Assembly: GCA_951406725.2 (NCBI GenBank)
Contig: OX597814.1
Coordinates: 205,034,001-205,098,000 of the forward strand
Reading direction: 5' to 3'
Length of the DNA stretch: 64,000 nt
Source: Octopus vulgaris
Taxonomy: Eukaryota
Shown here: positions 5,792 through 57,503 of the stretch, in pieces
How positions within the stretch are numbered: the first letter of the stretch is position 1
How the letters are laid out: each line of letters opens with the position of its first letter
Notes under the pieces: generated by a model
The model's database searches: none
Seen by the model: the letters and a program-made list of their open reading frames with translations, nothing else
Told to the model about the DNA's origin: nothing
Program-made: the position numbers and the translations under genes

Positions 5792-7445
<1,654 letters not shown>

Positions 7446-7460
7446 TTATTATATAGAAGG

Positions 7461-7511
7461 AGCTTCTACAGGACTAGTACTGTTTCATTCAAGAGAAATC
7501 TTCAGGAAGCT
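7461..7511 (-). ncRNA. Minimal type I hammerhead ribozyme motif
   Basis: Exact reverse complement of 13271-13321. Confidence 0.7.
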
Positions 7512-8495
7512 ATTTAACAAGAATTGTATTAGCATTTATACATTTAGGCAGGTTTAAAGGAGTGGTGGTGGGGGACTTTTTGGGGGTAGGCATAGCGCAA
7601 AATATCATACTTGGGGGAGTGGTCAAGGAGTCAGTGGTAAGTTAGATGAAAGAATAGATAAATAAAAAAATAAAATAAAAAAATAAAAAAATAAAAAATA
7701 AAAAAATATATAAAAAAATATAAAAAATAAAAAATAAAATAAAAAAATAAAATAAAATAAAAAATAAAAAAATAAAAAAATAAATAAAAAATATAAAAAA
7801 TATATATAAAAAAATATATATAAAAAAAATATATATATAAAAAAATATATATATAAAATATATATATATACAAAAATATATATATAAAAAAAGGGGGATA
7901 GAGTTATAGGTAAATAAGGAGATTCTCACTTATACCTATACACACATGTATACGTATCTACACACACATACATACATACACATATATATATACACACACA
8001 TATACATATATACATATATATACATACATATACATACCTACACATACACACATACATACATACAAATATACATATACATATATATATATACAATCCAATA
8101 CAGGCCCATTCCCTAATTTTAATTTTATTATCTTCATTTATTTCTTTTGTTATCTTTGATCGCTAGGGCTAAGAATCCTGGCAATGGCTGCAGTCCATTT
8201 GTCTGTCTACTAGAAGGCAAGTACTCATTCCCGCACGCACACTCATTAGCACGTACATTCACCCATTCGTACACTCATACACATACACGTACGCGCGCGT
8301 TTTATATTCATACATACAAACATCTACATACGTTCACGTATATACACATACGTACTCGTACCTACAGATTCGTGTCTACACTTTAGGAGGCTAGACTATA
8401 CATATACACCAATAAATATACATATATATATATATATATATATACCCGCATATACATACACACACACATATATACTCCTACATACAGATACATAC

Positions 8496-8539
<44 letters not shown>

Positions 8540-9052
8540 ATATATATATACATATATATATACACATACATACATATACACACACATACATACACATATA
8601 TATACATACACAAACATATATACACACATATATATATACACATACACACATACACACATACATACGTATACATACATACATACATCCATACATCCATACT
8701 TACATGCATTTATACGCATACACACACCCATCTATATATATGCATATATATATATATATATATATACACACTCACACATACATATACAAATCCACGCACA
8801 CACATACACATACATACACGTATACGCATACACGCACATACACATATACATGCGTACCCATACACGTGCACACACGCACGCGCATCCATATATATACACA
8901 CACACACATATATATACACACGTGTGCAAGCATACATACATACTCATACGCGCACACATACTTACAAATACATATATGCACACACTTACACACATATATA
9001 TACATACACATATACATGCATACATACATATATGCATACATACACACACGCA

Positions 9053-9103
<51 letters not shown>

Positions 9104-9418
9104 ATACATACATAGATACACATACGCATACATACACATACACATACATACACACATATATACACATATATATATACACATACACACACACACACATACA
9201 CATACATATATACACACATACATACATATACATACACACACACACATACATATATACATATACACTGATACACATACCCATACTTACACATGCATATACT
9301 TATATCACTACATACTCACATATATAAACATATATACATATACACACATACATATATACATGTACATACACATACGTATGCATATATATACATATACATA
9401 TATATACACACATATATA

Positions 9419-9450
<32 letters not shown>

Positions 9451-9719
9451 TACACACATATACATGTATACATACGCAAAAATGATACACATATATACAC
9501 ATACACACACACAGACAGATGCATATACATACATATATATATATAAACTACATATCTATATAAATACATACATAATACACATATACACACACATATATAT
9601 ACATTCATGCATATACATATACTAGTATACACATACATACACACACACGCGCACACATACATATGCACACACACATATATACAAATACATACATACATAA
9701 ACACATACACACACATATA

Positions 9720-9763
<44 letters not shown>

Positions 9764-10127
9764 CACGTACACATATACATATGTATATATATATCAACAA
9801 GGGAGGGTAAAGTTAATTAGTTATTAATCAATTTCATCAAGTGTTCAGTATGTAAAGGGACCATTATTATTTTGAGTAAACAATGTTAGAGGGAAAAAAT
9901 TCTCTAAGTAGTGGAAGAGGCTAAAAAACTTTATTGGCTGCTATTTCTAGAAAGTTTAGTATGTGGCAAAGTAATTTATTTTATCTTCCTAATCCCTAAT
10001 TATATAATATTTTATACATACATACACATACATAAGCACATACATTTACACATACATATGCATATACATATATACACATATACATACAAACACATATACA
10101 CATATACACACACACACACATACAATC

Positions 10128-10182
<55 letters not shown>

Positions 10183-10581
10183 AATATATATACATATATA
10201 TTTTTACATGCATACATACACACACACACACACATGCGTATATTCCTACTGTACCCATGCATTTCTATACAAATATACATACATACATACGATACACATA
10301 TACAAGCGTGCACATATAATATGTGAAAGGTCTTAGGAGAAAAGGTAATCGGGGGTGCTAGGGGAACAGTGGGGTTGGGGGGGCTGTTCCCCTAGCACCC
10401 CCGATTACCTTTTCTCCTAAGACCTTTCACATATTATATGTGCACGCTTGTATATGTGTATCGTATGTATGTATGTATATTTGTATAGAAATGCATGGGT
10501 ACAGTAGGAATATACGCATGTATTATGTGTGTGTGTGTGTATGTATGCATGTAAAAAAAATATATATGTATATATATTTGC

Positions 10582-10619
<38 letters not shown>

Positions 10620-10989
10620 GTATGTGCTTGTATGTGTGTGTGTGTGTATATGTGTATATGTGTTTGTATGTATATGTGTATATATGTATATGCATATGTA
10701 TGTGTAAATGTATGTGCTTATGTATGTGTATGTATGTATAAAATATTATATAATTAGGGATTAGGAAGATAAAATAAATTACTTTGCCACATACTAAACT
10801 TTCTAGAAATAGCAGCCAATAAAGTTTTTTAGCCTCTTCCACTACTTAGAGAATTTTTTCCCTCTAACATTGTTTACTCAAAATAATAATGGTCCCTTTA
10901 CATACTGAACACTTGATGAAATTGATTAATAACTAATTAACTTTACCCTCCCTTGTTGATATATATATACATATGTATATGTGTACGTG

Positions 10990-11040
<51 letters not shown>

Positions 11041-11294
11041 ATGTGTGTATGTATGTATGTATTTGTATATATGTGTGTGTATATGTATGTGTGCGAGTGT
11101 GTGTGTATGTATGTGTATACTAGTATATGTATATGCATGAATGTATATATATGTGTGTGTATATGTGTATTATGTATGTATTTATATAGATATGTAGTTT
11201 ATATATATATATGTATGTATATGCATCTGTCTGTGTGTGTGTATGTGTATATATGTGTATCATTTTTGCGTATGTATACATGTATATGTGTGTA

Positions 11295-11337
<43 letters not shown>

Positions 11338-11542
11338 GTGTATATATATGTATATGTATATATATGCATACGTATGTGTATGTACATGTATATATGTATG
11401 TGTGTATATGTATATATGTTTATATATGTGAGTATGTAGTGATATAAGTATATGCATGTGTAAGTATGGGTATGTGTATCAGTGTATATGTATATATGTA
11501 TGTGTGTGTGTATGTATATGTATGTATGTGTGTATATATGTA

Positions 11543-11585
<43 letters not shown>

Positions 11586-11664
11586 ATATATGTGTGTATG
11601 TATGTGTATGTGTATGTATGCGTATGTGTATCTATGTATGTATATATATATGTATATGTATATA

Positions 11665-11697
<33 letters not shown>

Positions 11698-12250
11698 GAG
11701 TGCGTGTGTGTATGTATGCATATATGTATGTATGCATGTATATGTGTATGTATATATATGTGTGTAAGTGTGTGCATATATGTATTTGTAAGTATGTGTG
11801 CACGTATGAGTATGTATGTATGCTTGCACACGTGTGTATATATGTGTGTGTGTGTATATATATGGATGCGCGTGCGTGTGTGCACGTGTATGGGTACGCA
11901 TGTATATGTGTATGTGCGTGTATGCGTATACGTGTATGTATGTATGTGTGTGCGTGGATTTGTATATGTATGTGTGAGTGTGTATATATATATATATATA
12001 TATATATGCATATATATAGATGGGTGTGTGTATGCGTATAAATGCATGTAAGTATGGATGTATGGATGTATGTATGTATGTATACGTATGTATGTGTGTA
12101 TGTGTGTATGTGTATATATATATGTGTGTATATATGTTTGTGTATGTATATATATGTGTATGTATGTGTATGTGTATGTATGTGTGTGTATATGTATGTG
12201 TGTATGTGTATGTATGTGTATATATATATGTATATATATATATATATATA

Positions 12251-12290
<40 letters not shown>

Positions 12291-13270
12291 TACGTATCTG
12301 TATGTAGGAGTATATATGTGTGTGTGTATATGCGGGTATATATATATATATATATATATGTATATTTATTGGTGTATATGTATAGTCTAGCCTCCTAAAG
12401 TGTAGACACGAATCTGTAGGTACGAGTACGTATGTGTATATACGTGAACGTATGTAGATGTTTGTATGTATGAATATAAACGCGCGCGTACGTGTATGTG
12501 TATGAGTGTACGAATGGGTGAATGTACGTGCTAATGAGTGTGCGTGCGGGAATGAGTACTTGCCTTCTAGTAGACAGACAAATGGACTGCAGCCATTGCC
12601 AGGATTCTTAGCCCTAGCGATCAAAGATAACAAAAGAAATAAATGAAGATAATAAAATTAAAATTAGGGAATGGGCCTGTATTGGATTGTATATATATAT
12701 ATGTATATGTATATTTGTATGTATGTATGTGTGTATGTGTAGGTATGTATATGTATGTATATATATGTATATATGTATATGTGTGTGTATATATATATGT
12801 GTATGTATGTATGTGTGTGTAGATACGTATACATGTGTGTATAGGTATAAGTGAGAATCTCCTTATTTACCTATAACTCTATCCCCCCTTTTTTTATATA
12901 TATATTTTTGTATATATATATATTTTATATATATATTTTTTTATATATATATTTTTTTTATATATATTTTTTTATATATATTTTTTATATTTTTTATTTA
13001 TTTTTTTATTTTTTATTTTTTTATTTTATTTTATTTTTTTATTTTTTATTTTTTATTTTTTATTTTTTTTATATATTTTTTTATTTTTTATTTTTTTATT
13101 TTTTTATTTTATTTTTTTATTTATCTATTCTTTCATCTAACTTACCACTGACTCCTTGACCACTCCCCCAAGTATGATATTTTGCGCTATGCCTACCCCC
13201 AAAAAGTCCCCCACCACCACTCCTTTAAACCTGCCTAAATGTATAAATGCTAATACAATTCTTGTTAAAT

Positions 13271-13321
13271 AGCTTCCTGAAGATTTCTCTTGAATGAAAC
13301 AGTACTAGTCCTGTAGAAGCT
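13271..13321 (+). ncRNA. Minimal type I hammerhead ribozyme motif
   Basis: Sequence parses as AGCUUC-CUGAAGA-uUUCucuuGAAu-GAAA-CAG-uACUAGUc-CUG-UA-GAAGCU. It has a 6-bp helix I, both core boxes, a GUA cleavage triplet and a palindromic loop III. Helix II is weak. Confidence 0.7.
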
Positions 13322-13404
13322 CCTTCTATATAATAAATTAATTTTACTCTGCTATGTATTGAGTACCTTACTTACTGTGGTTAACCCCGAATCAACCCGG
13401 GACC

Positions 13405-13455
<51 letters not shown>

Positions 13456-13859
13456 ATATATATATATATATTTGTGTGTGTGTGAGGCTGACATTAAAAG
13501 TATTTAAAGTTCCACCCTTGTTCTATGTATTTCTTTGTACCATGTTCCTATCAAATGATATTACAGCCTTCTGAAGGAGTCAACCTTTAGATGTCTCCAC
13601 GACCCTGATTCAAGCAGCCATGTAAAGTATGCTACATAGATGGCTGATTTAATTTTTGAAATAGTTAAAAGTGTCTTTAAATTTGAAATCCCTTTCTTTG
13701 TATCCAGAGCAGTCGTTATAGCAGTCACTTTTACGGCATGTGAGTTACATGTCTTGACAAGCAGAAATAGTACAGCATCAATATGGCTGTTATGCTGGCA
13801 AGTTGGCTTGGGAAAATACCTCAATACCTGGAATATTGATTGTCCTGATACCTAACACC

Positions 13860-14576
13860 CATCATCATCATCATCTTTTAACGTCCGTTTTCCATGCTGA
13901 CATGGGTTGGACGGTTTGACTGGGGACTGGCAAGCTAGGAGGCCACACCAGGCTCCAATCTGATCCGGCAAAGTTTTTACAGCTGGATGCCCTTCCTAAA
14001 GCCAACCACTCCGAGAGTGTAGTGGGTGCCTTTAACGTCCCACCAGCACAGGGAGCCAGTGAGGTGGCTCTGGCAGTGACCCACGCATGAAGGGTGCTTA
14101 TTGCATACCATCAGCATAGAAGCCAATCAGGCAGCACTGGCATCGGCCACAACTGCAATTTCTATTTGATTGTGATTTACTGGACTCGTGCCGGTGGCAC
14201 ATAAAAAGCACCATCCAAACGTGGCCGATGTCAGCGCTGTCTCGACTGGCTCCTGTGCCAGTGGCACATAAAAAGCACCATCTGAATGTGGCCGATGCCA
14301 GCGCTGCCTTGGCTGGCTTCCGTTCCAGTGGCACGTTAAAAGCACCACCCGATCGTGGCCGATACCAGACTCCCCTGGCACCTGTGCAGGTGGCACGTAA
14401 AAAGCACTCACTACACTCGCGGAGTAGATGGCGTTAGGAAGGGCATCCAGCTGTAGAAACACTGCAAGATTAGACTGGAGCCTGGTGCAACCCCTGGCTT
14501 CCCAGACCCTGGTCGAACCATCCAACCCGTGCTAGCGCGGAAAACGGACGTTAAACGATGATGATGATGATGATGA
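13860..14576. mobile_element. Two RTE 3' tails in inverted, tails-outward orientation
   Basis: A (CAT)n-led minus copy at 13860-~14100 joins a plus copy ending in (GAT)n at 14576. Confidence 0.8.
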
Positions 14577-15163
14577 ATAAGTCTCCTCAAGCATAGAATG
14601 TCACCCAATGATTCACAGATACTTTTTTAGTGGGCTGGTTATGTGACACTGGTGTAGGCTATGGCTGTGATCTCACTTTACTTGCTGGGTCTTCTCAATC
14701 ACAGCATATCTCCAGAGGTCTCAGTCTTTCATCATTGCCTCTGTGAGGCCCAAAGTTCAAAGATCATTCTTCAAATATGCACCCAAGTTGCTAGAAATTG
14801 TTTAACTTTTCAGTTCAGCATTAGTGTAAAAACTATACTTCCCACGTGTTGATAGGCACCATTGTCCTGTCCATTAAGCTAATATTCCTTCAGTTCCAGA
14901 TGTTACAGTGCCATTAAGATTTTGACCCTCTAGCTTTCATTATCATTGGTCATATTTTCTGACATCATACTTCAAAGATATGTGAACTTGTTCTCAGTAT
15001 AATGACCTTGATCATTCATAATTAAGTTCAAATTAACATTTGAGCTCAAAATAATGTTATGCTCAAAGTACTGTTAAAATCAGTTTAATGTTAAGCTCAA
15101 GGCAGAGTGAGTGAGTGAGTGAGTGAGTGAGTGAGGGAGGGAGGGAGGCAGGCAGGCAGGCAG

Positions 15164-15224
<61 letters not shown>

Positions 15225-15226
<2 letters not shown>

Positions 15227-16060
15227 CAGTTGCCATAGTAAAACTGAGTTTCGGATGCCAGGGCAGAATTCTACTCAGGCATCTCGTCAGTTATTAAGAC
15301 AAAAAAAATTGTTATGAAAATGACCATTGAATGAAGGGAAATTACTATGAAGATAACCGTTATTAAGACAAGCAAAAGAGCTATGAGAATGACCGTTAAG
15401 TAAAGGGAAGTTACCCGAATAAGGAGAAAGTAAAAATACTCAAAGAAGGTGAACCCATGCTCATAGAATCCACATATGCACACATGTACTTACATACACA
15501 TGCATGCACGAACACCATATGTGGATTCTATGTGTGTCGGTTTACCGTCTTCGAGTAGTTTTCACTGTCTCCCTATTCGGGTAACTTCCCTTTATTTAAC
15601 GGTCATTCTCATAGCTCTTTTGTTTGTATTAATAACTATCATCATCATCATTTAACGTCCGTTTTCCATGGTTGGACAGTTCAACTGGGGTCTGGGAAGC
15701 CAGGAGGCTGCGCCAGGCCCAGTCTTATCTGGCAGTGTTTCTACAGCTGAATGCCCTTCCTAACGCCAACCACTCCGAGAGTGTAGTGGGTGCTTTCTAT
15801 GTGCCACCTGCACAGGTGCCAGATGAGGCTGGCAAACGGCCTCTTCGTAGTAATTTCCTTTTATTTAACAGTCATTTTCATAGCTTTTTTGTTTGTCTTA
15901 ATAACTGACAAGGTGCCAGAGCAGACTTCTGCCCTGACATCCGAAACTCTGAGTTTTATAATGGCAACCAACTTATTGTCACATATTATATTATAGATAA
16001 ATTCCTCTATTTACGTAATACCGAGGTCTTATTCATTCTTTTGTTGTCATATTATTATTA
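15225..16060. mobile_element. Head-to-head inverted pair of PLE-like termini with hammerhead-like motifs; right arm interrupted by an RTE tail (15638-15840)
   Basis: 15225-15478 is the reverse complement of 15516-15637 plus 15841-15975. CUGACGA...GAAA lies at 15238-15294 (-) and CUGACAA...GAAA at 15901-15959 (+). Confidence 0.75.
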
Positions 16061-16470
16061 TTATTAATATATATATATATATAAATAGAAATATTAAAAT
16101 TTCTAAGTCTCTCTAAAAGAGACTACAGCAGCAGTACTGGATATTCATAGTTATCGCCAATCTAATATGGCAGTCCAGAAATATAGGACGTTTGCTGCTG
16201 CTGATTAGCTCGAAGAGGCCATTGCCTCTAGCTAGCTATGTGACACATGAACCTGTGTCCATTATAACCTTCGAACAGGGGAGGTCGGCCACTTCCCCTT
16301 GCTGGTCAGGCATCTGCAGACTAGTTTCAGGGTATTTCTAAGTCTCTCTAAAGGAGATTGGAGCTGCCTCCTAGCTTGCCAGTCCCCAGTCAAACCATCC
16401 AACCCATGCCAGCATGGAAAATGGACGTTAAACGATGATGATGATAATTATTATTATTATTATTATTATT

Positions 16471-16685
16471 AAGATAGTAAGCTGGCAGAATCCTTAGCAT
16501 GCTGGGCAAAATGCTTAGCAACATTTCGTCTGTAATTATTTTCTGAGTTCAGACTCCACTGTGGTTCATTTTGCTTTTCATCCATTCAAGGCTGATAAAA
16601 TTAGTACCAGCTGAGCACTGGGGGTTGATGGAATTGACTTACCCCCAAACGTGCTGGCCTTGTGTCAATAATTCAAAACCAATAT
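16471..16685 (+). mobile_element. tRNA-derived SINE family B
   Basis: Reads gctggcagaa...ttagca...ctgagttca... and matches the copies at 33453, 40449 and 44025. Confidence 0.75.
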
Positions 16686-18028: not shown

Positions 18029-18059
18029 AATATATATTCATACACACAAATGTTTATTA

Positions 18060-18316: not shown

Positions 18317-18359
18317 TATAATGTATGCATATATCAGTGTTAATTTCTATGCATATATA

Positions 18360-22877: not shown

Positions 22878-22880
22878 ATC

Positions 22881-34545: not shown

Positions 34546-35350
34546 ATATTACATATTTTTCCTTACAGCTGTTTCCAGTAGTCACTGTAGGCAGATTACT
34601 GATAGGGTTTACTCAGTTGGTCTATTGATCAATTGAAGAAAACTGGACGACCTAAGAAAATTAATTACTACTTTCATCAGAACCATTTCTGGTTATAACA
34701 AGCAGAATACTGAAGGAATGGCTTTTGTATGAGGAAGGGGGAGGGGGTGGAGAAGAAGATGGAAAGATGCAAGTAGAATAAAGAAGAGAGGAAGACAAGT
34801 TACAAAGGGATGGAAGGAGGTAAGGGGATGGTATAAGAGTCACTTACAAGAAGTGGGGGGGCATTTTATTTATTTCTTTATTGCCCACAAGGGGCTAACT
34901 ATAGAAGGGACAAACAAGGACAGACAAAGGGATTAAGTCGATTACATCTACCCCAGTGCGTAACTGGTACTTAATTTATCGACCCCGAAAGGATGAAAGG
35001 CAAAGTTGACCTTGGCGGAATTTGAACTCAGGGCAAAATTTGGACGAGGGATGGTCCTGAAATATTAGTGTTTGTAGCCAGGTGAACAGACATGAACCAT
35101 ATTAGCATTGTATGTAGGTGAGTTGTCCTCCAGGTATTGTGTGCATGTGTATGTAACACCTGATGGTTCCAATTGGAGATAACTGTCAGTCATTACATGT
35201 GACGGACAGTTATGTCGTTAAGTGGATGGTTTGTAATGCTGAAAATAACCATGGCAACAATCGCACACCTGTTTCAAACTGTAATTAACTGTTTTCAATT
35301 TCGTTTTACCTTGCTGTTAAAATATGTGATGTCTGGTTTCTATGTTACAG

Positions 35351-44254: not shown

Positions 44255-46258
44255 AGTGCAAGGCAAATAACCCAGTGTAGAACTCAATACGTGTATGTTA
44301 CAGTGCACTTATAAACTATGTTTTTAGTGAGACAACGGTAATCCAAAGGACAGGAGGTTGGGTGTCTGAAGCTGCATAGGTTTGTAGGGGGTGTTCTGGA
44401 TGAGCTTGGGAAGGGATTGTTATTTAGTGACAAATCAGTGTTTGGTTAATTATTATAGTTGGAGTTAAAGCTATCAATTGTTAAGGGGTTGAGGGTGGCG
44501 TTGTTGGGTTGTATGGTATGATAATTATTGTGTCCGGTGGTATCCTCCGTGGTATTCTCTATTATGGCAGGAGGTGTATTTGGCTGTTGTGGTAAATTTA
44601 AGGGTCAGGTGTTACCAGTGGTACTATAGTTGTAGTTATGAGGGTTTGTTTTGTTATGGGGGTCAGTTGGTGTATTGAGTTTATATGTATGGAACTGGGT
44701 GCTATGTTGAATAATTTACTAGGGTAGGGGTTAGCTGTTTGTGGGTTTCAAAGTTTCTTGCTGTTAAGATATCGGATAACTCTCACAATGTTGTTGGTGG
44801 TGGTGGTGGTGGAGTAGGAGAATTTTATAGATTGGGGGTTAAATATTTTGCTAAGGGGGTTAGATTTAGGGAAGAGTTTTGCAAGTAGGTGAAAAAGAAT
44901 TTTGGGTACTGAAGTCTGGACGTTAAGGGTAAAGGTGGTGTGGAACCACATGTCTCAGGTTCTAGTTCATTTAATCTGACTGGTGAAGGCTACTTGGGCA
45001 GAGATAGGGTTTTGGAGGTTTATGTTGGTGTCTGTTTTGTGGGTTGTGGTGTATGTAGAATTAGTGGTTATCTAGTAGGGGTTTGTTTGATAGGTCAATT
45101 GCTACTCCAATGTTTGGGTGGGCATTGGAGGGGTGGGGTAGGAGAAGCTTAGGTCTATCATATGTGGGTTGGGAACTGGTTTTGCTCTGGGTTTAGTTGA
45201 GAGAAGGAGGTCCCACATGGGGATGTATTCAGTTGAATGTTTATATCTGGTATGTTGTAGGGCACAATTGTGGCATTCAGCATATTCATCATCATCATCA
45301 TCATCATCATCGTTTAGCATCCGCTTTCCATGCTAGCATGGGTTGGACGGGTCAACTGGGGTCTGTGAAGCTGGAAGGCTTCGTCAGGCCCAGTCAGATC
45401 TGGCAGTGTTTCTACGGCTGGATGCCCTTCCTAACGCCAACCACTCCGCGAGTGTAGTGGGTGTTTTTTACGTGCCACCTGCACAGGTGCCAGACAGAGC
45501 TGGCGAACGGCCACGAACGGATGGTGCTTTTACGTGTCACCGGCACGGGGCCAGGCGATGCTGGCAACGAACACGGATGGATGGTGCTTTTACGTGCCAC
45601 CGACACGGGGCCAGACAGAGCTGGCAACCGGCCACGAACGGACGGTGCTTTTACGTGTCACCGGCACGGGGCCAGCCGAGGCTGGCAACGGACGCGAACG
45701 GATGGTGCTTTTACGTGCCACCGACACGGTTGCCAGACAGAGCTGGCAAACGGCCACGAGCGGACGGTGCTTTTACGTGTCACCGGCACGGGGGCCAGCC
45801 GAGGCTGGCAATATTGTTCAAATAAATCTTGATTACTAGATGAGGAGGAGATCCAGTAGGACATGCTTTCTATAATAGATTTTAGGATGGAATGGGGGTG
45901 GTTGGAGAAGTTCACATAGTGGAGGTTTTCTCCAGGTTTGTGGTATGGATAGGTTTGGTTTTGTAACCGCAGGGTAACATCTAAGAAATTAACAGTTTTG
46001 ATGTTGTTACAGAAAGAGATGCTGAGGCCAACGTTTTTAAAGAAGCTTCTAAATCTTTTTTAGTTTGTTCAACCACTAGAATTTCAGACAGTGAACAGAG
46101 TACCATCTCTGTGTAGACCACCAGAAATTTTGTGAAATTGCTCATGGATACCATTAAGAAGGTTGAGTCCAACGAGTCAGTAACTTAGGCAGAGTTATTG
46201 GCTCCCATAGGGATGTCAAAAAAATTGGGCATATTTTTGCGGATCCACAATTTCCCAT
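44255..46258 (-). pseudogene. Decayed Penelope-like element ORF (RT plus GIY-YIG start), interrupted by an RTE tail at 45287-45810
   Basis: Remnants include MGNCGSAKIC, GLHRDG, NFLDVTL...YHKPGENLHYVNFSNHPHSILKSI, WF...LFPKSNPLSKIFNPQSIKFSYS and CLTKNIVYKCTV. Confidence 0.85.
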
Positions 46259-46260
46259 CG

Positions 46261-46311
<51 letters not shown>

Positions 46312-47114
46312 TATATATATTATTTGCGTATGTATACACATAAACACACATACAGATAAATGTACACATATACATATTCACAAACAGGCACATACATATA
46401 CACATATATACACACAGGTACACACACACACAAACATACGTACATGCACATACATAAATATATATATGTATATATCTACATAGTACCCCTTCCTCCCCCC
46501 AAAATCATATGCACATACATATCATACATATATACATATATATATATACATATAAAGTGATAAACAAATTAATAAAAGGAGGGGAAATCATCGTCATCAT
46601 CATCATCACCATCATCGTCGTTTAACGTCTGCTTTCCATGCTGGCATGGGTTGGACCAGTTTGACAGAGGATTGGCAGACCAGAAGCCTGTACCAGGCTC
46701 CACTCTGATCTGGCAAGGCTTCTACCATGTGTACATATATCTTGGTGTGTGTGTGTGTGTCTGTGTGATTGTGAACTGGGTTCGAGTGTGTGTGTCTTTT
46801 GGTATCTGTGGGTGCCTCAGAATGCAGGCATATGTACATATAAACATATATTTCCATTAACACATCTAATTACATTTTGGACATATACTTTTCTTACATT
46901 TATATTGACTTCTCTCATTGTTGATACTATTCCCTATATGGGCACCAATGTAATTCTTTCCAAATTAATTGCAATTCATATTTGAGGCTCTGGTGTAGCT
47001 ATAAGGTGTTATTCAGGCACCCAACTATGAGTGCATTGCATCCAGTAGCAGAAACAGCAGTCAGCTAATGAAGTTCATAAGATAATCATTTATTATTTTG
47101 TCATCTCACTTTTC

Positions 47115-47405
47115 TCATGTATGTACGTTTATATGTATGTGTGCATGTGTGTATGTATAGATGTATGTGTGTATATGTGCGTGTGTATATATGTGTGTAT
47201 ATGTGCGTGTGTATATATATGTGTGTATGTGCGTGTGTATATATGTGTGTATATATGTGCGTGTGTATATATGTGTGTATATGTGCGTGTGTATATATAT
47301 GTGTGTATATGTGCGTGTGTATATATATGTGTGTATATGTGCGTGTGTATATATATGTGTGTATGTGTGCGTGTGTATATATATGTGTGTATATGTGCGT
47401 GTGTG

Positions 47406-47436
<31 letters not shown>

Positions 47437-47906
47437 ATGTGGGTATATATGTGTGAGTATGTGGGTAGATATTTGTGTGTGTGTGTATATATATATACAC
47501 ACACACACACACGAGTATATGTATCGATTCGCACACACACACGTATATAAACCATGACTTCCCCAGACATTTCATGTTGTTGCTGTTGTTTATTCCCAAG
47601 TTGGCTCTGATCAAGTAAATCAACGATTAATGAAGCTTTTGCTGTTATTTCCAGCATATTGAATGACCTCTCTCCATACTCCCACACAACGTCCCTCATT
47701 ATACAAGTGTATACATACATATATATATATACATATATATATATACACACATGTACATACACACACACACAGATATATACATACACACACAGATATATAC
47801 ATACATATATATACACATACACACACACATACACACACACACATACATACACACACACATATATACACACACATATATACACACACACATATACACACAC
47901 ACACAT

Positions 47907-47939
<33 letters not shown>

Positions 47940-48022
47940 TATACACACACACATATATACACATACACATATACATATACACACACACATATACATATAC
48001 ACATACACACACACATATATAT

Positions 48023-48055
<33 letters not shown>

Positions 48056-48095
48056 TATATACACATACACACACACACACACACATACATACATT
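47115..48095. repeat. TG/TA minisatellite (47115-47520) and CA/TA microsatellite (47710-48095)
   Basis: Seen directly in the sequence. Confidence 0.9.
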
Positions 48096-48494
48096 CATAT
48101 TTCTGTATTACACATATTCTATATTTAGTAGGTTGCAATCCTATATGTTAATATAGTATTAAGTGATATGATGATAGCCAACTCTGAAAACAGATGGAAT
48201 CACCAAAGTTAGGTGAAACATAGTATTGTTGTTAATTTGCACACCTACAGGAAGTGTCTTGAAGCGGTGTCATGTTACCACTGTTCCAATTCTATGGTGA
48301 GGACTGCTGTACTTAATTCTCTGTCGATCTTCAACTAAACTATAAAATTTTTGTTACATGAGAATGTTTTCAATGAAGTTTTGTTAGACATAGCTGTGTG
48401 GTTAAGAAGTTTGCTTGCCAACCTCTTGGTTTTGAGTTCAGTCCCATTGTATGGCACTGTAGCAAGCATCTTTTACTATAGCTGCCCATAAGTC

Positions 48495-48590
48495 ACACGC
48501 AGACGAATGCTCAACACCGCCTCACATGGTTTAAAGAGTGCGAAAACTGGAATATTGGACAGTGGAAAACCGTTGTGTAGAGTGATGAAT
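48495..48590 (+). pseudogene. Tc1 transposase fragment
   Basis: NAQHRLTWFKECENWNIGQWKTVV*SDE resembles the RLxWA...WKxVLWSDE motif. Confidence 0.65.
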
Positions 48591-48882
48591 GTCAAATGTA
48601 ATTTTAAATTAAATTAAAAGAATTTTTGAAAATTAAACCATTAAATAGATTAAGGATTAAAATTTAAAACTAAAAATGATAAAATTAGAATTAAAACAAA
48701 TTAAAAAATTAAAATAAAAGAATTTTAGAAAATATAAAAAAGGTAATAATAAAACAATAATAAATAAAATAAAGTTAAATTAAAAATTTTTTAAAGTTTA
48801 AAAAATATTTTAAATATATATATATATACATGCTCACACATACTCATACATACACATGTATATATGTACACACACACATGCA

Positions 48883-48942
<60 letters not shown>

Positions 48943-49310
48943 AATTAGATAAGCTCTTTGGCATCATACCCATCTCAATCATTGTCTCTGACTATAGTGT
49001 TAAAGTTATCTAAGGAACTTGCTGAAGGATTTATTATCAAAATACAATGTATCACTAATTCCTGTCTATGGTCAGTTAGGTTATTCTCTGATGTAAGTAT
49101 TTAGACGGACTCATCTAGGCAGGAATCCTATCTCGTTCTTTCTATTTCATATGGTTTTGCTCGACTCGGGATCAACCATTTTAACTCGTATTTAGTTTTG
49201 TTTTCCTTAAGTTGCCATATTTGCTTGTGAAGTGATGTTGCATTTATGAAGTATTTTGCTTGGATTGATTATCCCTCACTAATAATTCCGTTTTATATAA
49301 ATATATATAT

Positions 49311-49620
49311 ATGAAATTGAAAAATAGTCAACAAGAAGGAGTACGGTTAGATAGCTATTTAAAAAAAACTACACGTTTCGATACAACATAGGTCCACATA
49401 TGCACATGTGTTAGCATCGAAGTCAAAGCTTTACTAATGGGGTCTGCAATTTATTTATTACCTGAGGAGATACAACTTGATTCCATTATACAGGTAAACC
49501 GTTGCTTACTTTAAATTCTGTGTGTATTTGGATCTATGTTGTAGCGAAACATGTGTAGCATTCATTAAATAGCTTTCTAACTGTACCCCTTCTTGTCGAC
49601 TATTTTTTCAATTTTATTTT
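49311..49620. mobile_element. Head-to-head inverted PLE-like termini with a hammerhead-like motif (49458-49561, +)
   Basis: 49313-49400 is the reverse complement of 49520-49616. The motif reads CUGAGGA-gauacaac...guuguagc-GAAAC-augu-GUA. Confidence 0.65.
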
Positions 49621-49732
49621 CACACACGATGAATGCCTATGCCTAGACTTGAAAGTATACTGTCATACTACCGGCTCTTTGGTAATTCTAAGGGTGAAAG
49701 AGCTCTATTTTGTACTCTACTATGTTCTCAAT

Positions 49733-50010
49733 GGATGCCAGCACCGCCTTGGCTGGCTTCCGTGCCACTGGCACGTTAAAAGCTCCAACCGATCTTGACC
49801 GATGCCGGACCACCCCTGGCACCTGTGCAGGTGGCACGTAAAAAGCACCCACTACACTCGCAGACTGGTTGGCATTAGGAAGGGCATCCAGCCGTAGAAA
49901 CTCTGCCAGATCAGACTGGAGCAGCCCCTGGCTTCCCAGACCCCGGTCGAACCGTCCAACCCGTGCTAGCACGGAAAACAGACGTTAAACGATGATGATG
50001 ATGATGATGA
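49733..50010 (+). mobile_element. RTE 3' tail
   Basis: Matches the consensus and ends in (GAT)n. Confidence 0.85.
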
Positions 50011-50289
50011 TATATATATATATTGGGAGAGTTTACGAAAAAAACAAAAGATGAAGGCAGGTGGTGTACAAAACAAACAGATATATTTGTATAATGCTCA
50101 GGAATAGAAAAAGTCTTTTACGTTTCAAGCCTACGCTCTTCTACAGAAAGGGACACAGAAAAAATAAGGAGAGAAACAATATATGTAAGGTGTATTTAAC
50201 TGTTATCCAAAAGGTTCTGCCCCAAAGTGATCAAAATAAGTGACTTCTATTATGCAGTATTGGTGAAACAAGCCCACTTATGAATAGCC

Positions 50290-50765
50290 CTCATTCATTG
50301 GACATTAAACTTTGCTTACAAAGACCTGTTGAGGCAAGTGAAATCAAAATCGCTGACATGGCCGATGACAGTACTGCCTGATTGGCACTCATGCCAGTGG
50401 GATGTTAAAAGCACCATCTGAGCATGATCATTGCCAGGGCCGCTGATTGGCTCCCGTGCCAGTGGCATGTAAAAGGCACCATTTGATCGTGATCGTTGCC
50501 AGTGTTGCCTAACTGGCACATGAAAAACAACATTCAAGCGTGGTCATTGACAGTGCCACCGGACTGGCCCTCGTGCCAGTGGCAGATAAAAGCACCCACT
50601 ACACTCTTGGAGTGGTTGGTGTTAAGAGGGGCATCCAGCTGTAGAAACTTTGCTAGATCAGATTGGAGCCAGGTGCAGCCTTCTTGCTTGCCAGCCCTCA
50701 ATCAAAGCATCCAACCCATGCCAGCATGGAAAGCAGACGAAAACAACGACGATGATGATGATATG
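50290..50765 (+). mobile_element. RTE 3' UTR/tail
   Basis: Includes aagacctgttgaggcaagtg, as at 29876. Confidence 0.85.
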
Positions 50766-52064
50766 ATGAACAGTTGACAGGATTTTAGGTTGTTTTAAAG
50801 TCATCTTGGCTTTAGGCTCCATCCATCATCCAGTTCACCACCACCGCCACCATCTCGTCCTTGGCTACTTTTAGCAGACTCTACTCTGTTACAAGGATTT
50901 AGATCAGGTGTCTCTGGTTTGATGATACCTTCTGCCCCTCCTTCCTTCTTACCAGTCTTGCACATCCTATGAAGTGTCATAGGCACTGACTGCCTTCCCT
51001 GAGTTCATCATCATCATTTAACATCTATTTTTCTATGCTGGTATGGATTGGATGGCTTAACAGCAGCTGGCAAGGCTAGGAGCTGCTCCAGGTTCCATTG
51101 TCTGTTTTGGCACGGTTTCTACAGCTGGATGCCCTTCCTAATACCAACCTCTTTACAGAGTGTACTGGGTGCTTTTTATGAGACACAAGCATTGGTGCTT
51201 ATTTGATAAAAAAAACAAAACAAAACAAACCACTTTCACACCTGATAAACATTGTATAGTAATCCCTATTTTGCTGAGCTTCTTCTCAGCTAATTAACAG
51301 GAACTAATAAATACCTTATTGGTTCTATAATCATTATAGTAATCACTGCTCTCTACTAATTAACAAGAATTAGCAAATGACAAATTGGTTTTATATTTAA
51401 TATAGTAATCACTATTTTGCTGAGCTCCTGTAATATTGGTATTACTATTATTATTATTATTATTTGCTGAACCTGATAGTTATATCCTCAGCTCACACCA
51501 TATCATATTATTTCTAAAGTATAAAGCAGATGTGTTATAAGATACAGCAGCTGTGAGTCTATATTGAGTAACAGGCTAATGTTGGGGATAAAATGCTGCA
51601 ACACACAATGGAATGCTGGTTCCTGTTAGTCTCAGCTGTGAAGGAGTTAAATGTGAAACGTCTTTTATTTCTGTTTTACATTTCTGAAGGCATCTTGTTG
51701 TTTGTAGGTGTTCAGCAGTTAATGTTGCTTAAGAGGTTCTTGGGGAGTGTGACTTTAAATAAAACCATGTAAAACAAAACCAGTCTTACCCTTGGCTCAA
51801 TCATATAAGTAAGATTTATACAATAATCTATTCTAACTTATAAAAACATCAACAAACTTTTAAATAAAAACTTAAAAACATTTTCAATTATCAAATATTG
51901 AAATAAATCCTTTCGTTATTATATTTCTATTGAAATATACTTCCATTATTTCAATTAATTTTGAAAATAACGAAGGATTTACTAAAGTAATTTTCTCGTA
52001 ATTAAGCTGACATTTTGAACATAAACTGACATCAAATTTTGATGAAAGGTGTTAATTTCAGTCA

Positions 52065-52428
52065 CAAAATCGAAATCGATCAAAATCAATAGAAATTGTA
52101 GTTGTGATACCAGTGCTGGTGGCACATAAGAGAACCATCCAAATGTGGCCGTTGCCAGCGCCGCCCCGACTGGCCTCCGTACCAGTGGCACGTAAAAAGC
52201 ACCAACTGATCGTGGCCGTTGCCAGCCTTCCCTGGCACCTGTGCCAGTGGCACGTAAAAAGCACCCACTACACTCATGGAGTGGTTGGCATTAGGAAGGG
52301 CATCCAGCTGTAGAAACACTGCCAGATCAGACTGGGCCTGGTGCAGCCTCCTGGCTTCCCAGACCCCAGTTGAACCGTCCAACCCATGCTAGCAAGGAAA
52401 GCGGACGTTAAACGATTATGATGATGAA
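52065..52428 (+). mobile_element. RTE 3' tail
   Basis: Matches the consensus. Confidence 0.85.
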
Positions 52429-52799
52429 TGTAGATTTGTATCTTACAACCAAAAGCAGGTCTTAGGCTTTTTATCATCAAAAAAGGTTAAGAAAGATTAA
52501 TAAAAACCAGTAAAATAATTATTTAATAAACAGACACGTTCAAGGTTTCTAATGTCTGTTTTTTTTGTTTGTTTGTTTCTGTAATTTCTTGTGATAGATG
52601 TATCCACTCTAATTATAGTGTTTAATTATTATAGTGTTAATTATTAATAAATAAACTGTTTATTTCTCAGCTTTTGTCTTTTGATGAGTTTTCTTTCATG
52701 AAAATGATCAAAGTTTTAATTAAAACCTGGAAAACCCCAGCCAGAATCGTTTGTTGTTAGAATTCATGGTGATTCCACATTTTCACTGTTATCATGTTC

Positions 52800-53520
52800 A
52801 TCTTCAGCGCCATGTTGCTTCATATCTTAAGAAGTCTCCATTAGCCATTTCTTCACCAGGAGATTCAATAAATTCCACCAAATTTTCTCAATTCATTTCC
52901 TTGATTTCTGCATGGTACATTCATTACAACAAACATCAGATAAACATTTTCTATTATTGACTTCTTGAAATCCAGGAAGTTGTGGGTCAGTCTGGGTGGC
53001 TTTAATTCAGACAATACCCACTGTAGTTATTCCCACCCATCACCAGACTGCAGTTAAATTTTCTCTCACATTAAAATTCCTTTACAAAAATAGTTTTGGT
53101 TTTACCATTTCAGAACAATGTCATTTGCTTAGATTCACCATAAAACTCAGGCTTTGAATGTAGTAACAACTCACCTCCTGGTTCCTAAGTCCAATCCAAC
53201 CGGTTGTGTTTCGGTGGCCCAAAAGCTAACACTAACTGTCAGGTCGTCCATGCTAGGTGAGTCAACTGAAGCATTGTCCACAAGAAGCTTTATTTCTGTT
53301 GGCCTTTTGCACATGACATTAAATGGAGATTCTAATAAAATGGGACAAATAGATAAATAACTGTGGAGATGGAATAAATGTGCAAATTGAAACAATGCAG
53401 CTGAACAAGAAACTGTTATACACAGACTGCCAGATGCAAAGAGTAGCAACTTCTGCCAATGTTTATTCCTTGATTTATGCCTGTTGCAATGACAGCTAAA
53501 TGTGCTCTGTGCCCAACTGC
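52800..53520 (-). pseudogene. Decayed Tigger/pogo transposase, DDE and C-terminal part
   Basis: IKLLVDNAS..SPSMDDL..VSF...QP, VVTTFKA, VKEF and LVEFIESPGEEMANGD resemble DDE_1 family motifs. Confidence 0.65.
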
Positions 53521-53524
53521 TGTG

Positions 53525-53825
53525 AAGAGAGAGAGAGGGGGAGGGAAAGAGAGAAAGAAAGAGAGAAAAAGAGAAAGTGAGAGAGAGAAAGAAAGAGAGA
53601 AAGAGAGAAAGAGAGAGAGAGGGGGAGAGAAAGAGAGAAAGAAGAGAAAGAAAGAGAGAGAGAAAGAGAGAGAAAGAAAGAAAGAAAGAGAGAGAGAGAA
53701 AGAGAGAGAAAGAGAAAGAAAGAGAGAGAAAGAAAGAGAGAGAAAGAAAGAGAGAGAAAGAAAGAGAGAGAGAGAAAGAAAGAGAGAGAAAGAGAAAGAA
53801 AGAGAGAAAAAAGAAAGAGAGAGAG

Positions 53826-53856
<31 letters not shown>

Positions 53857-53925
53857 AAGAGAGAGAAAGAGAGAGAAAGAGAGAGAAAGAGAAAGAAAGA
53901 GAGAGAAAGAAAGAGAGAGAAAGAA

Positions 53926-53964
<39 letters not shown>

Positions 53965-54019
53965 AAGAAAGAGAGAAAAAAGAAAGAGAGAAAAAAAGAA
54001 AGAGAGAGAGAGAGAGAGA
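53525..54019. repeat. Polypurine (GA/GAAA)n tract, ~495 bp
   Basis: Seen directly in the sequence. Confidence 0.97.
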
Positions 54020-54029
54020 ATATTTAGGA

Positions 54030-55400
54030 ATGAAATTAGTAGTATTACAGAAATTCAATGATGGCCAACAAGTTGTAGGTATTGGAAGAGATCTCAATCT
54101 GCAACCAATGAATGCATGAACAAGTCATAGTAATGCCAAAAAATGTACACTTTGTTCTCAAAGAATAACATTTTTAGCTGCTGCAAAATAACCAACAATT
54201 AGAAGAGAACCAAGTGGGAAATATACAAAGACTTTTAATTTGGAGGAAATAAACCAACGTATCACACCATGTTCACAACTTGACAAATAAAAGTCCACTG
54301 TTTGTTTGATAACCTAAAGAAAACACACAGTTCTAGTGGCAAGTCATGGTTGGTTTGAGTGCTTCAAAGCTCACTGAAGATTATAAATAACACACAGATA
54401 ACAAGTGAGTCTGAGCGAGTCTGGAAGTTCTGACAAAGAAGCTTTACTGAAAAATATTGACAAAAGAGAATACAATCTGCAATTAATTTTTAATGTAAAT
54501 GAGGCAGACATGTTTTGTAAATGGATGCCAAACAGAACTTGCATTTCAAAAGAAGTCCAAAACCAGAGTTGGGTTTGTGGTTGCTAGAAGTTGCCTGACT
54601 TTTCTATGTGATGGTCATGCTTTGGATTGTCCGAAACTCAAAGCATTGGTTGTTTATCATTCTAAGAGACCAGTAACCATAAAAGGATAGCTTAAATCCC
54701 AGCTTTCTGTTATATGGTGATCATCATCATCATCGTTTAACGTCTGCTTTCCATGTTAGCATGGGTTGGACGGTTTGACTGAGGGCTGGCGAACCAGATG
54801 GCTGCACCAGGCTCCAATCTTGATTTGGCAGAGTTTCTACAGCTGTATGCCCTTCCTAATGCCAACCACTCCGAGAGTGTAGTGGGTGTTTTTACATGCC
54901 ACCGGCACGGGGGCCAGTTAGGTGGTACTGGCAACGACCTCACTTGAATCTTTTTACAAATGCCACCAGCACAGGTGCCAGTAAGGCGACGTTGGTAACG
55001 ATCACGCTCAAATGGTGCCCTTTTATGTGCCACTGGCACGGAAGCCAGTTGGCTGCTCTGGCAACGATCACGCTCAGATGGTGCTCTTGGCACCCTACTA
55101 GCACGGGCAGAAGTGCCAGTAAGGCGACGCTGGTGATGATCACACTCGAATGATGCCTTTTATGTGCCACTGGCATGGAAGCTGGTTAGTTGCACTGTCA
55201 ACGATCATATGAAAAAAAAGGCAATGCACCACCAAAAGAATGTTGCAAGTGTGGTCTAAATTTGTTTTTCTTCTCAGACCTGACAGATAATGTTCAAATA
55301 GCATTTGGACCATCAAACACTTTATGGTGAATCTTTAAGCAAATGATTCTGTTCTGAGATGGTGAAACCAAATCTATTTTCTGTAAAGGAATTTTAGGTT
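54030..55400 (+). pseudogene. Decayed Tigger/pogo transposase, interrupted by an RTE tail at 54719-55207
   Basis: Remnants are KLVVLQKFNDGQQVVGIGRDLNL (CENP-B-like HTH), ASHGWFECFK and QLIFNVNEADMFCKWMPNRTCISKE (compare FNxDETGLFWKxMP). Confidence 0.8.
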
Positions 55401-55926
55401 TGTATGTTAAGTGTTTGTTAGGGATCCTGTGTATGGAGGTTGATAGGTAACTGAATGTTTGCTCTCTCTCAGTCTGTAGCTTTTTGTAGGCTGCAGACGT
55501 TTCTACATCTCTCCAGGTGTTTAAATGTGTTCAGACATTTACTTTAGTTCTAGGTTTTCAGTTTGACAAAGAAAATCAGCTTCTGTAGATGTAAATGCTC
55601 TGTAAAATATTAAGGAGCCATGAAACCCCCTCACGTGTACGTCCTGTGATGTTTAGGTTTATTCAGAGGTTCAGACTTTATCAGATATTATCTTTTATCT
55701 TTTACTTGTTTTAGTCATAAGACTGTGGCCATGCTGGGGCAACACCTTCAAGAATTCTTTTTTTTTTTCAGTTGAATGAATTCATCCCAGTACTTATCTT
55801 CCTTTAAGTCTGGGAATTTTTCTATTGGTGCCTTTTACCAAATTGCTATGGTACAAGGATGTAAACACACCAACAGCAGTGTTGAGGGACAAAATAAAGG
55901 CACAAAGACACACAACATATATGTAT

Positions 55927-55969
<43 letters not shown>

Positions 55970-56044
55970 CATACATATATATACACACATACATACATAT
56001 ACATACATGCACACATATACATACATATACACACATATACACAC

Positions 56045-56075
<31 letters not shown>

Positions 56076-56652
56076 TTTCATCATTATCATCATCATCATT
56101 TGGCATCCCTTTTCCAGGGGTTAGACAGTTTGACTGGAACTGGTAAGCTGAAGAGCTGCTCCAGGCCCCCCAGTTTGTTTTAGTTTGGTTTCTACGGTCA
56201 GATGCCATTCCTAACACTGACCACTCCATGGAGTGTAGTGGGTGCCCTTTATGTATCACCGGCACTGACCACAACAACAATTTCACATGTCTTCTCAAGT
56301 ACAGCAAATCACCAAAGGCTTTGGTCAGTTGTCATTGCCTCCATGGGACTCAACATCTAAAGGTCATGCTTCCCCACCTTGTCCCATGTCTTCCTGGGTC
56401 TGCCTCTCCCACAGGTTCCCTCCATAGTTAGAGATCAGCACTTGTTTATTCAGCTGTCCTCGTCCATAAGCATCACATGGCCATACCAACACAGTCTGCC
56501 GCTACTTTGTGAGTTCAAATTCCACCGAGGTCGACTTTGCCTTTTATCCTTTCGAGGTCGATAAATTAAGTACCAGTTACGCACTGGGGTCGATGTAATC
56601 AACTTAATCCTTTTGTCTGTCCCCTCTATGTTTAGCCCCTTATTGGTAGTAA

Positions 56653-56937
56653 AGAAATATATATATTATATATGCCAGCCTCGCCTGGCCCCCGTGCCGG
56701 TGGCACGTAAAAGCACCATCCGTTTGTGGCAGTTTGCCAGCTCCGTCAGGCACCTGTGCGGGTGGCACGTAAAAAGCACCCACTACACTCATGGAGTGGT
56801 TGGCGTTAGGAAGGGCATCCAGCCGTAGAAACACTACCAGATCTGACTGGGCCTGATGCAGCCTTCCAGCTTCACAGGCCCCAGTTGAACCGTCCAACCC
56901 ATGCTAGCATGGAAAACAGACGCTAAATGATGATGAT
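56653..56937 (+). mobile_element. RTE 3' tail
   Basis: Matches the consensus. Confidence 0.85.
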
Positions 56938-57069
56938 ATTTAAATAGATGTTAAAATAGCCTCATAAAGGGATAAAAATGTCCAATGAATTGCTGGTTTG
57001 CTGCCTATTTTTTTTGTGGATAGTAATATCCCTAAAATAAGAGGTTTAAGTATTCAGAAAATGGAGAAA

Positions 57070-57503
57070 TAGCATTAATATAATTTATTAACGGCAACAA
57101 TTCAACATGTTCTCTTAAAGCTGTTTCAATTTTGCTCAAAGAATTAAATTCCAGGAATTAAAATAATTTATTGGACAATATCTCGTCAGAGGAGTAAAAT
57201 AGACATAGCATTGGGTTATTAGATGTTATACTTCTGATGAGATTTTGCCCAATAAAATATTTTAATTACTGGAATTTAATTCATCATCATCATCTCATCG
57301 TTTAATATCCGTTTTCCATGCTGGCATGGGTTGGATGGTTTGACTGGGGGCTGGCAAACCAGAAGGCCTCACCATCAACCATGTTCGGCTGGTGCTTTTT
57401 ACATGCCACTGGCACGGGGAGCCAGTCAGGCATCCTTTAGGTATAATCGAAACTGCTGTAAGAGAACATTGAATTTTTGCAGTTAATAAATTATATCAAT
57501 GCT
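57070..57503. mobile_element. Head-to-head inverted PLE-like termini, each with hammerhead core boxes; right arm interrupted by an RTE tail (57282-~57440)
   Basis: Left (-) reads CUGACGA...GAAACAGCUUUA-AGAG at 57112-57193. Right (+) has CUGAUGA at 57234 and GAAACUGCUGUA-AGAG at 57449. Confidence 0.72.

What the first reader, a model, noticed from the sequence alone, without database searches (positions are those of the whole stretch)
7444..57503. Recurrent architecture: four different families form head-to-head inverted pairs with hammerhead motifs pointing outward
Seen: the same layout (3' end, 5' truncation, short spacer, 5' truncation, 3' end) occurs at 7.4-13.3, 15.2-16.0, 49.3-49.6 and 57.1-57.5 kb in sequences that otherwise appear unrelated. 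In three cases one arm abuts a (TA)n, (CA)n or (TG)n tract. Known: PLEs can insert with inverted terminal copies. Inference: this is a systematic mode of mobilising short ribozyme-terminated RNAs, for example two cDNAs primed from both ends of a break at a microsatellite. It may represent an uncatalogued class of fold-back, ribozyme-bearing non-autonomous elements at high density.
Basis: partly seen in the sequence, partly recalled or inferred. Interest (0 to 1): 0.75.

Follow-up and report, generated by a model that had tools for sequence, protein, structure and literature searches.

The report
Head-to-head Hydra-type Penelope retrotransposon insertions
The four back-to-back repeats are real, but they are the truncated ends of four protein-coding Penelope-type jumping genes inserted in an already described head-to-head form; nearly every pair joins one longer and one shorter end, which likely records copying from both sides of a cut in a TA repeat.

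Summary
All four head-to-head pairs are real and far above chance. In three old families an inverted partner lies 5' of the copy in 39 of 88 loci and 3' of it in 1 of 88; in the young family 33 of 38 loci are pairs. They are not a non-autonomous class: each family's ends are joined elsewhere in the genome to a Penelope-like (PLE) ORF. Family 1 has an intact 713-aa ORF with the Hydra-clade motifs. Arms do not end at the ribozyme cut site but at two family-specific points, about 20-110 and 90-215 nt beyond it. The inverted 5'-truncated copy, one-sided tail, (TA)n target and hammerhead are all in print (PMC8557442, PMC3846280). Measured here: 65 of 68 pairs combine one tailed and one tail-less arm, either arm can be the longer (13:10), and the arms share their variants. 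Best mechanism, inferred: two target-primed cDNAs from both ends of a cut (TA)n, one per start site (about 0.6); fold-back copying is the rival (about 0.3). The scan noted this footprint before in this and other genomes.

The parts
6563..7443 (.). (TG)n/(TA)n array; (TA)n directly abuts the short end of pair 1
7444..10383 (-). Family 1 left arm: 3' UTR/pLTR of a young Hydra-clade PLE, tail-less end at 7444, truncated about 45 nt after the ORF stop codon; its last 14 nt (10370-10383) form the apparent spacer
7460..7511 (-). type I hammerhead motif, family 1 (core at 7505)
10384..13337 (+). Family 1 right arm up to the short-end position
13271..13321 (+). type I hammerhead motif (core 13277, predicted cut after 13315); centroid fold gives the three-helix junction, z -0.27
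13338..13407 (+). 70-nt PLE tail, on this arm only; in full elements it runs on towards the ORF start
13408..13471 (.). (TA)n target tract, right end of pair 1
15165..15224 (.). (CA)30 abutting the short end of pair 2
15225..15516 (-). Family 2 left arm, tail-less; hammerhead core at 15290
15517..16067 (+). Family 2 right arm with tail, followed by (TA)n; core at 15905 mutated
15638..15841 (.). later insertion of an abundant SINE-like repeat into the right arm of pair 2
49310..49406 (-). Family 3 left arm, tail-less, next to (TA)n; holds only the 3' half of the hammerhead
49406..49735 (+). Family 3 right arm with hammerhead (core 49462) and tail; a SINE-like repeat and then (TA)n follow
56938..57234 (-). 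Family 4 left arm with tail; hammerhead core at 57189
57233..57927 (+). Family 4 right arm, tail-less, split by two later repeat insertions (57283-57431, about 57508-57906), ending at (TG)n

Best explanation
The four pairs are head-to-head insertions of four ORF-bearing, Hydra-type Penelope-like retrotransposon families, each pair likely made by two reverse-transcription events primed from the two ends of a cut in a (TA)n tract. Shown: family identity, ORF linkage, microsatellite target, variable 5' truncation, two fixed 3' end positions, one tailed plus one tail-less arm, shared variants between arms. Inferred: the element's endonuclease cuts both strands; its RT (predicted to be a dimer in a Poseidon element) starts one cDNA at the distal and one at the proximal start site of the same RNA, or of RNAs from the same source locus; both stop early and their ends are joined; host repair fills in. 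The hammerhead is carried along in the pLTR and does not define the ends. Sites 2-4 are old, decayed products of the same process.
For: ORF linkage. Family 1: intact ORF at L158 with IRWRS, DKT, CNCHDKTTC (CxCx5C), CDLC, CMH and no CCHH (diagnostics), in pLTR-tail-ORF-UTR-pLTR units and tandems. Family 2: 8 of 30 loci have collinear upstream ORF remnants. Family 3: L093 and L096/L169. Family 4: L225, L226. Tail rule: 33 of 33 family-1 pairs and 32 of 35 pairs in families 2-4 (Fisher p 6e-7) are long plus short. Both ends lie in (TA)>=4 in 33 of 33. Among 23 asymmetric pairs the tailed arm reaches further 5' in 13 and the tail-less arm in 10; a single fold-back copy would always make the tailed arm the longer. 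Arms share subfamily variants: 42 concordant, 8 discordant, fraction 0.84 against 0.12 in shuffles. In vitro, a Poseidon PLE cleaves and extends both strands and starts RT at two internal sites that bound the tail, without needing ribozyme cleavage (PMC11167929).
Against: Near-perfect palindromes are in excess (7 of 30 against 1.8 expected, P 0.0012), and arm lengths correlate (rho 0.49; 0.36, p 0.09, for asymmetric pairs only), as fold-back predicts. 24 locus-private variants are in both arms against 23 in one arm, which fits copying of one arm from the other as well as a shared template. One of 33 pairs has a 29-nt inverted duplication of its flank (L028). No pair has arms from clearly different source loci. 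The in vitro data are from another PLE clade. No empty site or TSD could be read. The loci are the top-scoring hits, not a random sample, and family-1 index arms were chosen with 4 nt of tail in the query.
Confidence: 0.6

Rival explanations
1. Same elements, different mechanism: one cDNA (or an antisense RNA, as proposed in PMC3846280) folds back and is copied into a hairpin; the copy is cut or anneals to the target at the proximal AT-rich site, and later asymmetric deletions at the palindrome centre produce unequal arms.
For: Excess of near-perfect palindromes with 7-42 nt loops; shared private variants, 24 against 23; one inverted flank duplication; published self-priming model; the tail was attributed to endonuclease resolution in PMC8557442.
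Against: In 10 of 23 asymmetric pairs the tail-less arm extends further 5', which needs a second event each time; middles of 180-3400 nt in most pairs; both tail borders are RT start sites in vitro in a Poseidon element.
Confidence: 0.3
2. One reading: an uncatalogued class of non-autonomous, ribozyme-terminated fold-back elements made from short self-cleaved RNAs.
For: Arms at sites 2-4 are short (100-350 nt) and non-coding; each family has a hammerhead; short copies dominate the top hits; ORF linkage of families 3 and 4 rests on few, decayed loci.
Against: All four families link to PLE ORFs; 5' ends vary; no arm ends at the cut site; some partner arms have no ribozyme; only 2 of 88 loci showed an upstream same-strand hit within 1.5 kb, so no tandem retrozyme units.
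Confidence: 0.05
3. The arms are TIRs of DNA transposons or fold-back elements, or site 1 is an assembly artefact.
For: Site 1 arms are about 99% identical; no contig of 4 public runs bridged its junction (inconclusive).
Against: Arms are ORF-linked retroelement ends of variable length with unequal outer ends and no internal body; site 1 arms differ at 26 aligned positions and many microsatellite lengths and obey the family's tail rule; sites 2-4 arms are only 84-86% identical. A TIR element with an 8-bp TSD in the same window (58351-59401) looks quite different.
Confidence: 0.03

Closest known systems
Hydra clade of C-terminal EN+ Penelope-like elements (Craig et al. 2021, PMC8557442), e.g. 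Hydra-1_Obim, Penelope-13_HM
   Same: RWK-like, DKT, CxCx5C, CxxC and CxH motifs, no CCHH, (TA)n target, hammerheads with a short helix III and a U-U or bulged base of helix II as in the paper's File S2, inverted 5'-truncated copy
   Different: Family 1 unit is about 5.2 kb with a 2.9-kb microsatellite-rich 3' UTR (listed Hydra families are 1.1-3.0 kb); tails are 70-140 nt, not 30-40; the hammerheads of families 1-4 differ by eye from the Hydra-1_Obim row, so these appear to be other families
EN+ Penelope elements of Adineta vaga (Arkhipova et al. 2013, PMC3846280)
   Same: head-to-head inverted pLTRs, palindromic junctions, tail on one of the inverted pLTRs
   Different: there: few copies, 8-10 bp TSDs and a self-priming model; here: hundreds to thousands of candidate copies, any TSD hidden in (TA)n, either arm longer
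Poseidon_Ac in vitro system (Frangieh et al. 2024, PMC11167929)
   Same: two start sites bounding the tail, both strands cut and extended, ribozyme cleavage not needed
   Different: other clade; the two parts read do not explain inverted pairs or report one-long-one-short coupling
Animal non-LTR retrozymes (bioRxiv 10.64898/2026.07.22.740005; part 1 of 5 read)
   Same: type I hammerhead, PLE-related
   Different: retrozymes are non-coding tandem units; these four families are ORF-linked and not tandem short units
L1 twin priming (recalled, not from a call)
   Same: two primers from one break yield an inverted 5' part
   Different: in L1 the two pieces copy different parts of the RNA; here both arms copy the same 3' region

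Membership tests
EN+ Penelope-like element | single ORF with RT and GIY-YIG endonuclease | tested here: met
   713-aa ORF at L158. Pfam did not hit the two family-1 fragments, but BLASTP aligns 467 columns through RT and endonuclease to a Pfam RVT_1 + GIY-YIG PLE at 21% identity, E 2e-4, and 2 of the 120 listed homologs carry PF01541. Families 2-4 show decayed remnants at about 28-47% identity to it.
EN+ Penelope-like element | pLTR / partial tandem organisation | tested here: met
   family 1: L138, L140, L147, L153, L156; family 4: L226; not shown for families 2 and 3
EN+ Penelope-like element | inverted 5'-truncated copy at the 5' end | tested here: met
EN+ Penelope-like element | optional tail at one end | tested here: met
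   65 of 68 pairs
EN+ Penelope-like element | type I hammerhead in the pLTR | tested here: met
   core and helices I-III in all four family sequences. Single aged copies mostly fold no better than shuffles; cleavage untested.
EN+ Penelope-like element | target-site duplication | tested here: inconclusive
   both ends lie in (TA)n; direct matches beyond the tract were only in low-complexity or tandem flanks among 33 pairs; no empty site available
Hydra clade | RWK and DKT motifs | tested here: met
   family 1: IRWRS (RWR, not RWK) and SDKTK; family 2 SDKTK
Hydra clade | CxCx5C linker, no CCHH, CxxC and CxH near the C-terminus | tested here: met
   family 1 complete; CxCx5C also in families 2 and 4; family 3 too decayed in the linker
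Hydra clade | (TA)n insertion preference | tested here: met
   33 of 33 pairs; microsatellite next to 70 of 88 old 3' ends against 574 of 4500 random positions
Hydra clade | placement in the RT phylogeny with reference Hydra elements | not tested
   reference proteins were not held as loci
non-LTR retrozyme | non-coding tandem units, each with a hammerhead | tested here: not met
   ORF-linked; no tandem short units in 88 loci
non-LTR retrozyme | circular RNA and self-cleavage | not testable with these tools
   no run on record as RNA was listed
TIR DNA transposon / MITE | fixed symmetric termini, internal body, defined TSD | tested here: not met
   unequal outer ends, no body, variable arm length

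The most novel reading that the evidence does not exclude
Hydra-type PLE integration is a concerted, asymmetric double priming: one RNP uses each of two start sites on the same RNA exactly once, one per end of the cut (TA)n, so that the inverted pair with one tail is the normal product rather than an occasional one. Family 1, with an intact ORF and hundreds of near-identical copies, would be a direct test system. I found the one-sided tail in print only as 'often' or 'optionally', and no paper with this coupling or model (searches).
Probability: 0.5. Interest if true: 0.6.

Novelty: new member of a known kind. Interest (0 to 1): 0.33.

Why it matters
As a discovery of a new element class it does not stand: the structure is the published signature of Penelope-like elements. 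Its value is as data on an open question, how PLEs form inverted insertions, which PMC8557442 and PMC11167929 call unresolved. The near-strict one-long-one-short rule across four unrelated families of very different age, the 13:10 split of the longer arm and the shared variants constrain the models. Family 1 is a young Hydra-clade family with an intact ORF, suited to an in vitro test. It also warns annotators that such pairs mimic MITEs or fold-back elements.

Tried and rejected
Rfam scan: no hammerhead among the 150 listed of 170 matches, nearly all microsatellite-driven miRNA hits. The repeat finder was swamped by microsatellites. My structure-aware hammerhead scans found nothing at strict settings. 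At relaxed settings there were 5 hits against 0.24 in shuffles; three are arms of sites 2 and 4, and the family-1 and site-3 motifs were missed, so I relied on family sequences. Pfam gave no RT or endonuclease hit for family 1. The 819-aa ORF in L047 first looked like the family-1 ORF but is a different PLE inserted at the junction of that pair. Laying contigs of 4 public runs on the site-1 junction: none bridged it; inconclusive. No RNA holder listed. ADAR barcode test: no A>G excess among shared private variants (1 of 24). The lead of twin hairpins behind both start sites: family 1 has small hairpins 6-8 nt behind each end, but they are weak (-3.7 and -4.8 kcal/mol), unlike in sequence and untested against shuffles. 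Empty orthologous sites: no related genome is held, and the 880-bp microsatellite left of site 1 blocks short contigs. One search was noisy because (TA)n stayed in the family sequence; it was repeated trimmed. Rows dropped: L063 and L100 (same pair as L059 and L081); L023; L023, L030 and L047 from the arm-length test. Supplements of the bioRxiv preprint were not seen, and of PMC8557442's supplement only term searches and part 2 of 59; catalogued families matching these four could be in Repbase or Dfam, which are not searchable here.
Full report
Observation. Self-comparison and alignment confirm four divergent pairs. Site 1 is a 5.9-kb near-perfect palindrome (2888 matches, 26 mismatches); sites 2-4 have arms 84-86% identical, and later SINE-like insertions interrupt the right arms at sites 2 and 4. 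The families are unrelated in DNA.

Hammerheads. All four family sequences contain CUGANGA, helix II, GAAAC, a short helix III and helix I. The forms match the Hydra-clade motifs listed in File S2 of PMC8557442 and the minimal PLE hammerheads of PMC4209133 (passages). In the window only site 1 has two intact motifs; the others are decayed, split or half missing. Rfam listed none. The predicted cut lies 22 nt before the short end and 92 nt before the long end in family 1; in families 2-4 the long ends lie about 95-215 nt beyond it. The arms are therefore not ribozyme-terminated. Activity was not tested.

Families in the genome. The genome is 2.8 Gb; an earlier scan note calls it octopus, which I did not test. 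First-look candidates were 935, 2068, 357 and 317, of which 40 were scored each. For family 1 I fetched 37 loci covering 39 of the 40 hits; the fortieth is the window's own. 33 of 38 loci have a divergent partner within 9.5 kb, all 33 with the tail on exactly one arm and (TA)n at both ends. For families 2-4 I used the 30 returned loci each, minus two duplicates: an inverted partner lies on the 5' side in 39 of 88 and on the 3' side in 1 of 88. Of 35 pairs at 50 bits or more, 32 are long+short, 2 short+short and 1 long+long (Fisher p 6e-7). These are best hits, not random samples, and partners beyond 1.5 kb are missed.

Autonomy. Longer family-1 arms run into an ORF. Full units read pLTR, tail, ORF, 2.9-kb 3' UTR, pLTR, occur in 5.2-kb tandems and are often preceded by an inverted truncated copy. 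L158 holds an uninterrupted 713-aa ORF with the Hydra-clade diagnostics given in PMC8557442 (passages): RWR, DKT, CxCx5C, CxxC, CxH, no CCHH. It has 1080 homologs at E 1e-20 or better among 7993 scored candidates. Site 1 is that element's 3' UTR, cut about 45 nt after the stop codon. Family 2 has collinear upstream ORF remnants in 8 of 30 loci, family 3 in 2 of 30 (extended). Family 4 had 1 of 30 there, but L225 and L226 show ORF, UTR and end in line. The non-autonomous reading fails.

Mechanism. Shown: target, two end classes, their pairing, variable truncation. In 30 measurable family-1 pairs, 7 are near-symmetric (1.8 expected, P 0.0012); of the other 23 the tailed arm is longer in 13 and the tail-less arm in 10. 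The arms of a pair share subfamily variants (42 concordant, 8 discordant, 3 of these at the terminal base; 0.84 against 0.12 in shuffles) and half of the private ones (24 shared, 23 single). Established elsewhere: a Poseidon PLE protein cuts and extends both strands, starts at two internal sites bounding the tail, needs no ribozyme cleavage and is predicted to dimerise (PMC11167929, parts 1-2 of 4 read). Inferred: each end of the cut primes one cDNA, one from each site, on the same RNA or same-source RNAs, and the truncated ends are joined (0.6). The fold-back model of PMC3846280 (passages and Discussion read) explains the symmetric class and the shared variants, but it needs a fixed stop and secondary deletions for the 10 reversed pairs (0.3). 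That long palindromes lose their centres asymmetrically is recalled, not from a call. My data do not separate the two models decisively.

Comparison. Head-to-head inverted copies, the one-sided tail, (TA)n bias and pLTR hammerheads are all published for PLEs. The Hydra table lists an octopus family and an entry with an attached inverted copy. It works like, and by all tested features is, an EN+ PLE; family 1 meets the tested Hydra motifs, and no tree was built. It is not a retrozyme or a TIR element. Seven literature searches gave no paper stating the strict long/short coupling or a double-priming model for PLEs; subscription papers are not covered. The scan has noted the same footprint in this and other genomes; those notes are not independent support.

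Verdict. Real, systematic and explained: new families of a known kind, with a useful quantitative constraint on an unresolved mechanism. Interest 0.33.

Noticed in passing
window 58351-59401: About 1.05-kb element with 119-bp terminal inverted repeats (96%) and an 8-bp direct repeat on both sides; looks like a non-autonomous hAT-type DNA transposon (family name recalled).
   Followed up: partly
window 60250-61125: LINE-like 3' fragment ending at (AT)26, followed by an inverted 88% copy of part of it (60922-61125): a convergent arrangement around a TA tract, unlike the four pairs.
   Followed up: no
window 62303-63096 (-) and 63519-63645 (+): Decayed Hydra-like ORF end whose last 127 bp recur inverted at 99% identity about 1.1 kb away, inside other sequence; possibly a fifth pair or a recent local duplication.
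   Followed up: partly
window 44296-44951, 45808-46262, 49041-49244 (all -): Further decayed Hydra-like ORF fragments, so the window holds PLE remains beyond the four pairs.
   Followed up: partly
window 34564-34680 (-): Another hammerhead-like motif with the same helix III as family 4 and a longer loop II.
   Followed up: no
L021, L138-L161: 27 of 28 family-1 arms in the first sample have six C's at one run between RT and endonuclease, which breaks the frame; four copies have seven and are in frame there. It could be a dead subfamily moved in trans, frameshifting or homopolymer error; the sample was chosen by likeness to a six-C copy.
   Followed up: partly
L047:4315-6640 (-): A second PLE with an intact-looking ORF (Pfam RVT_1 and GIY-YIG) sits at the junction of a family-1 pair; other PLE ORFs flank L019, L022, L037 and L041.
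   Followed up: partly
L028 (G000:C2:47544269-47554268): A family-1 pair whose two flanks beyond (TA)n are inverted copies over 29 nt.
   Followed up: partly
window 10384-13337: Family 1 carries a 2.9-kb 3' UTR made mostly of (TA)/(TG) microsatellite, so an active element spreads its own target sequence.
   Followed up: no
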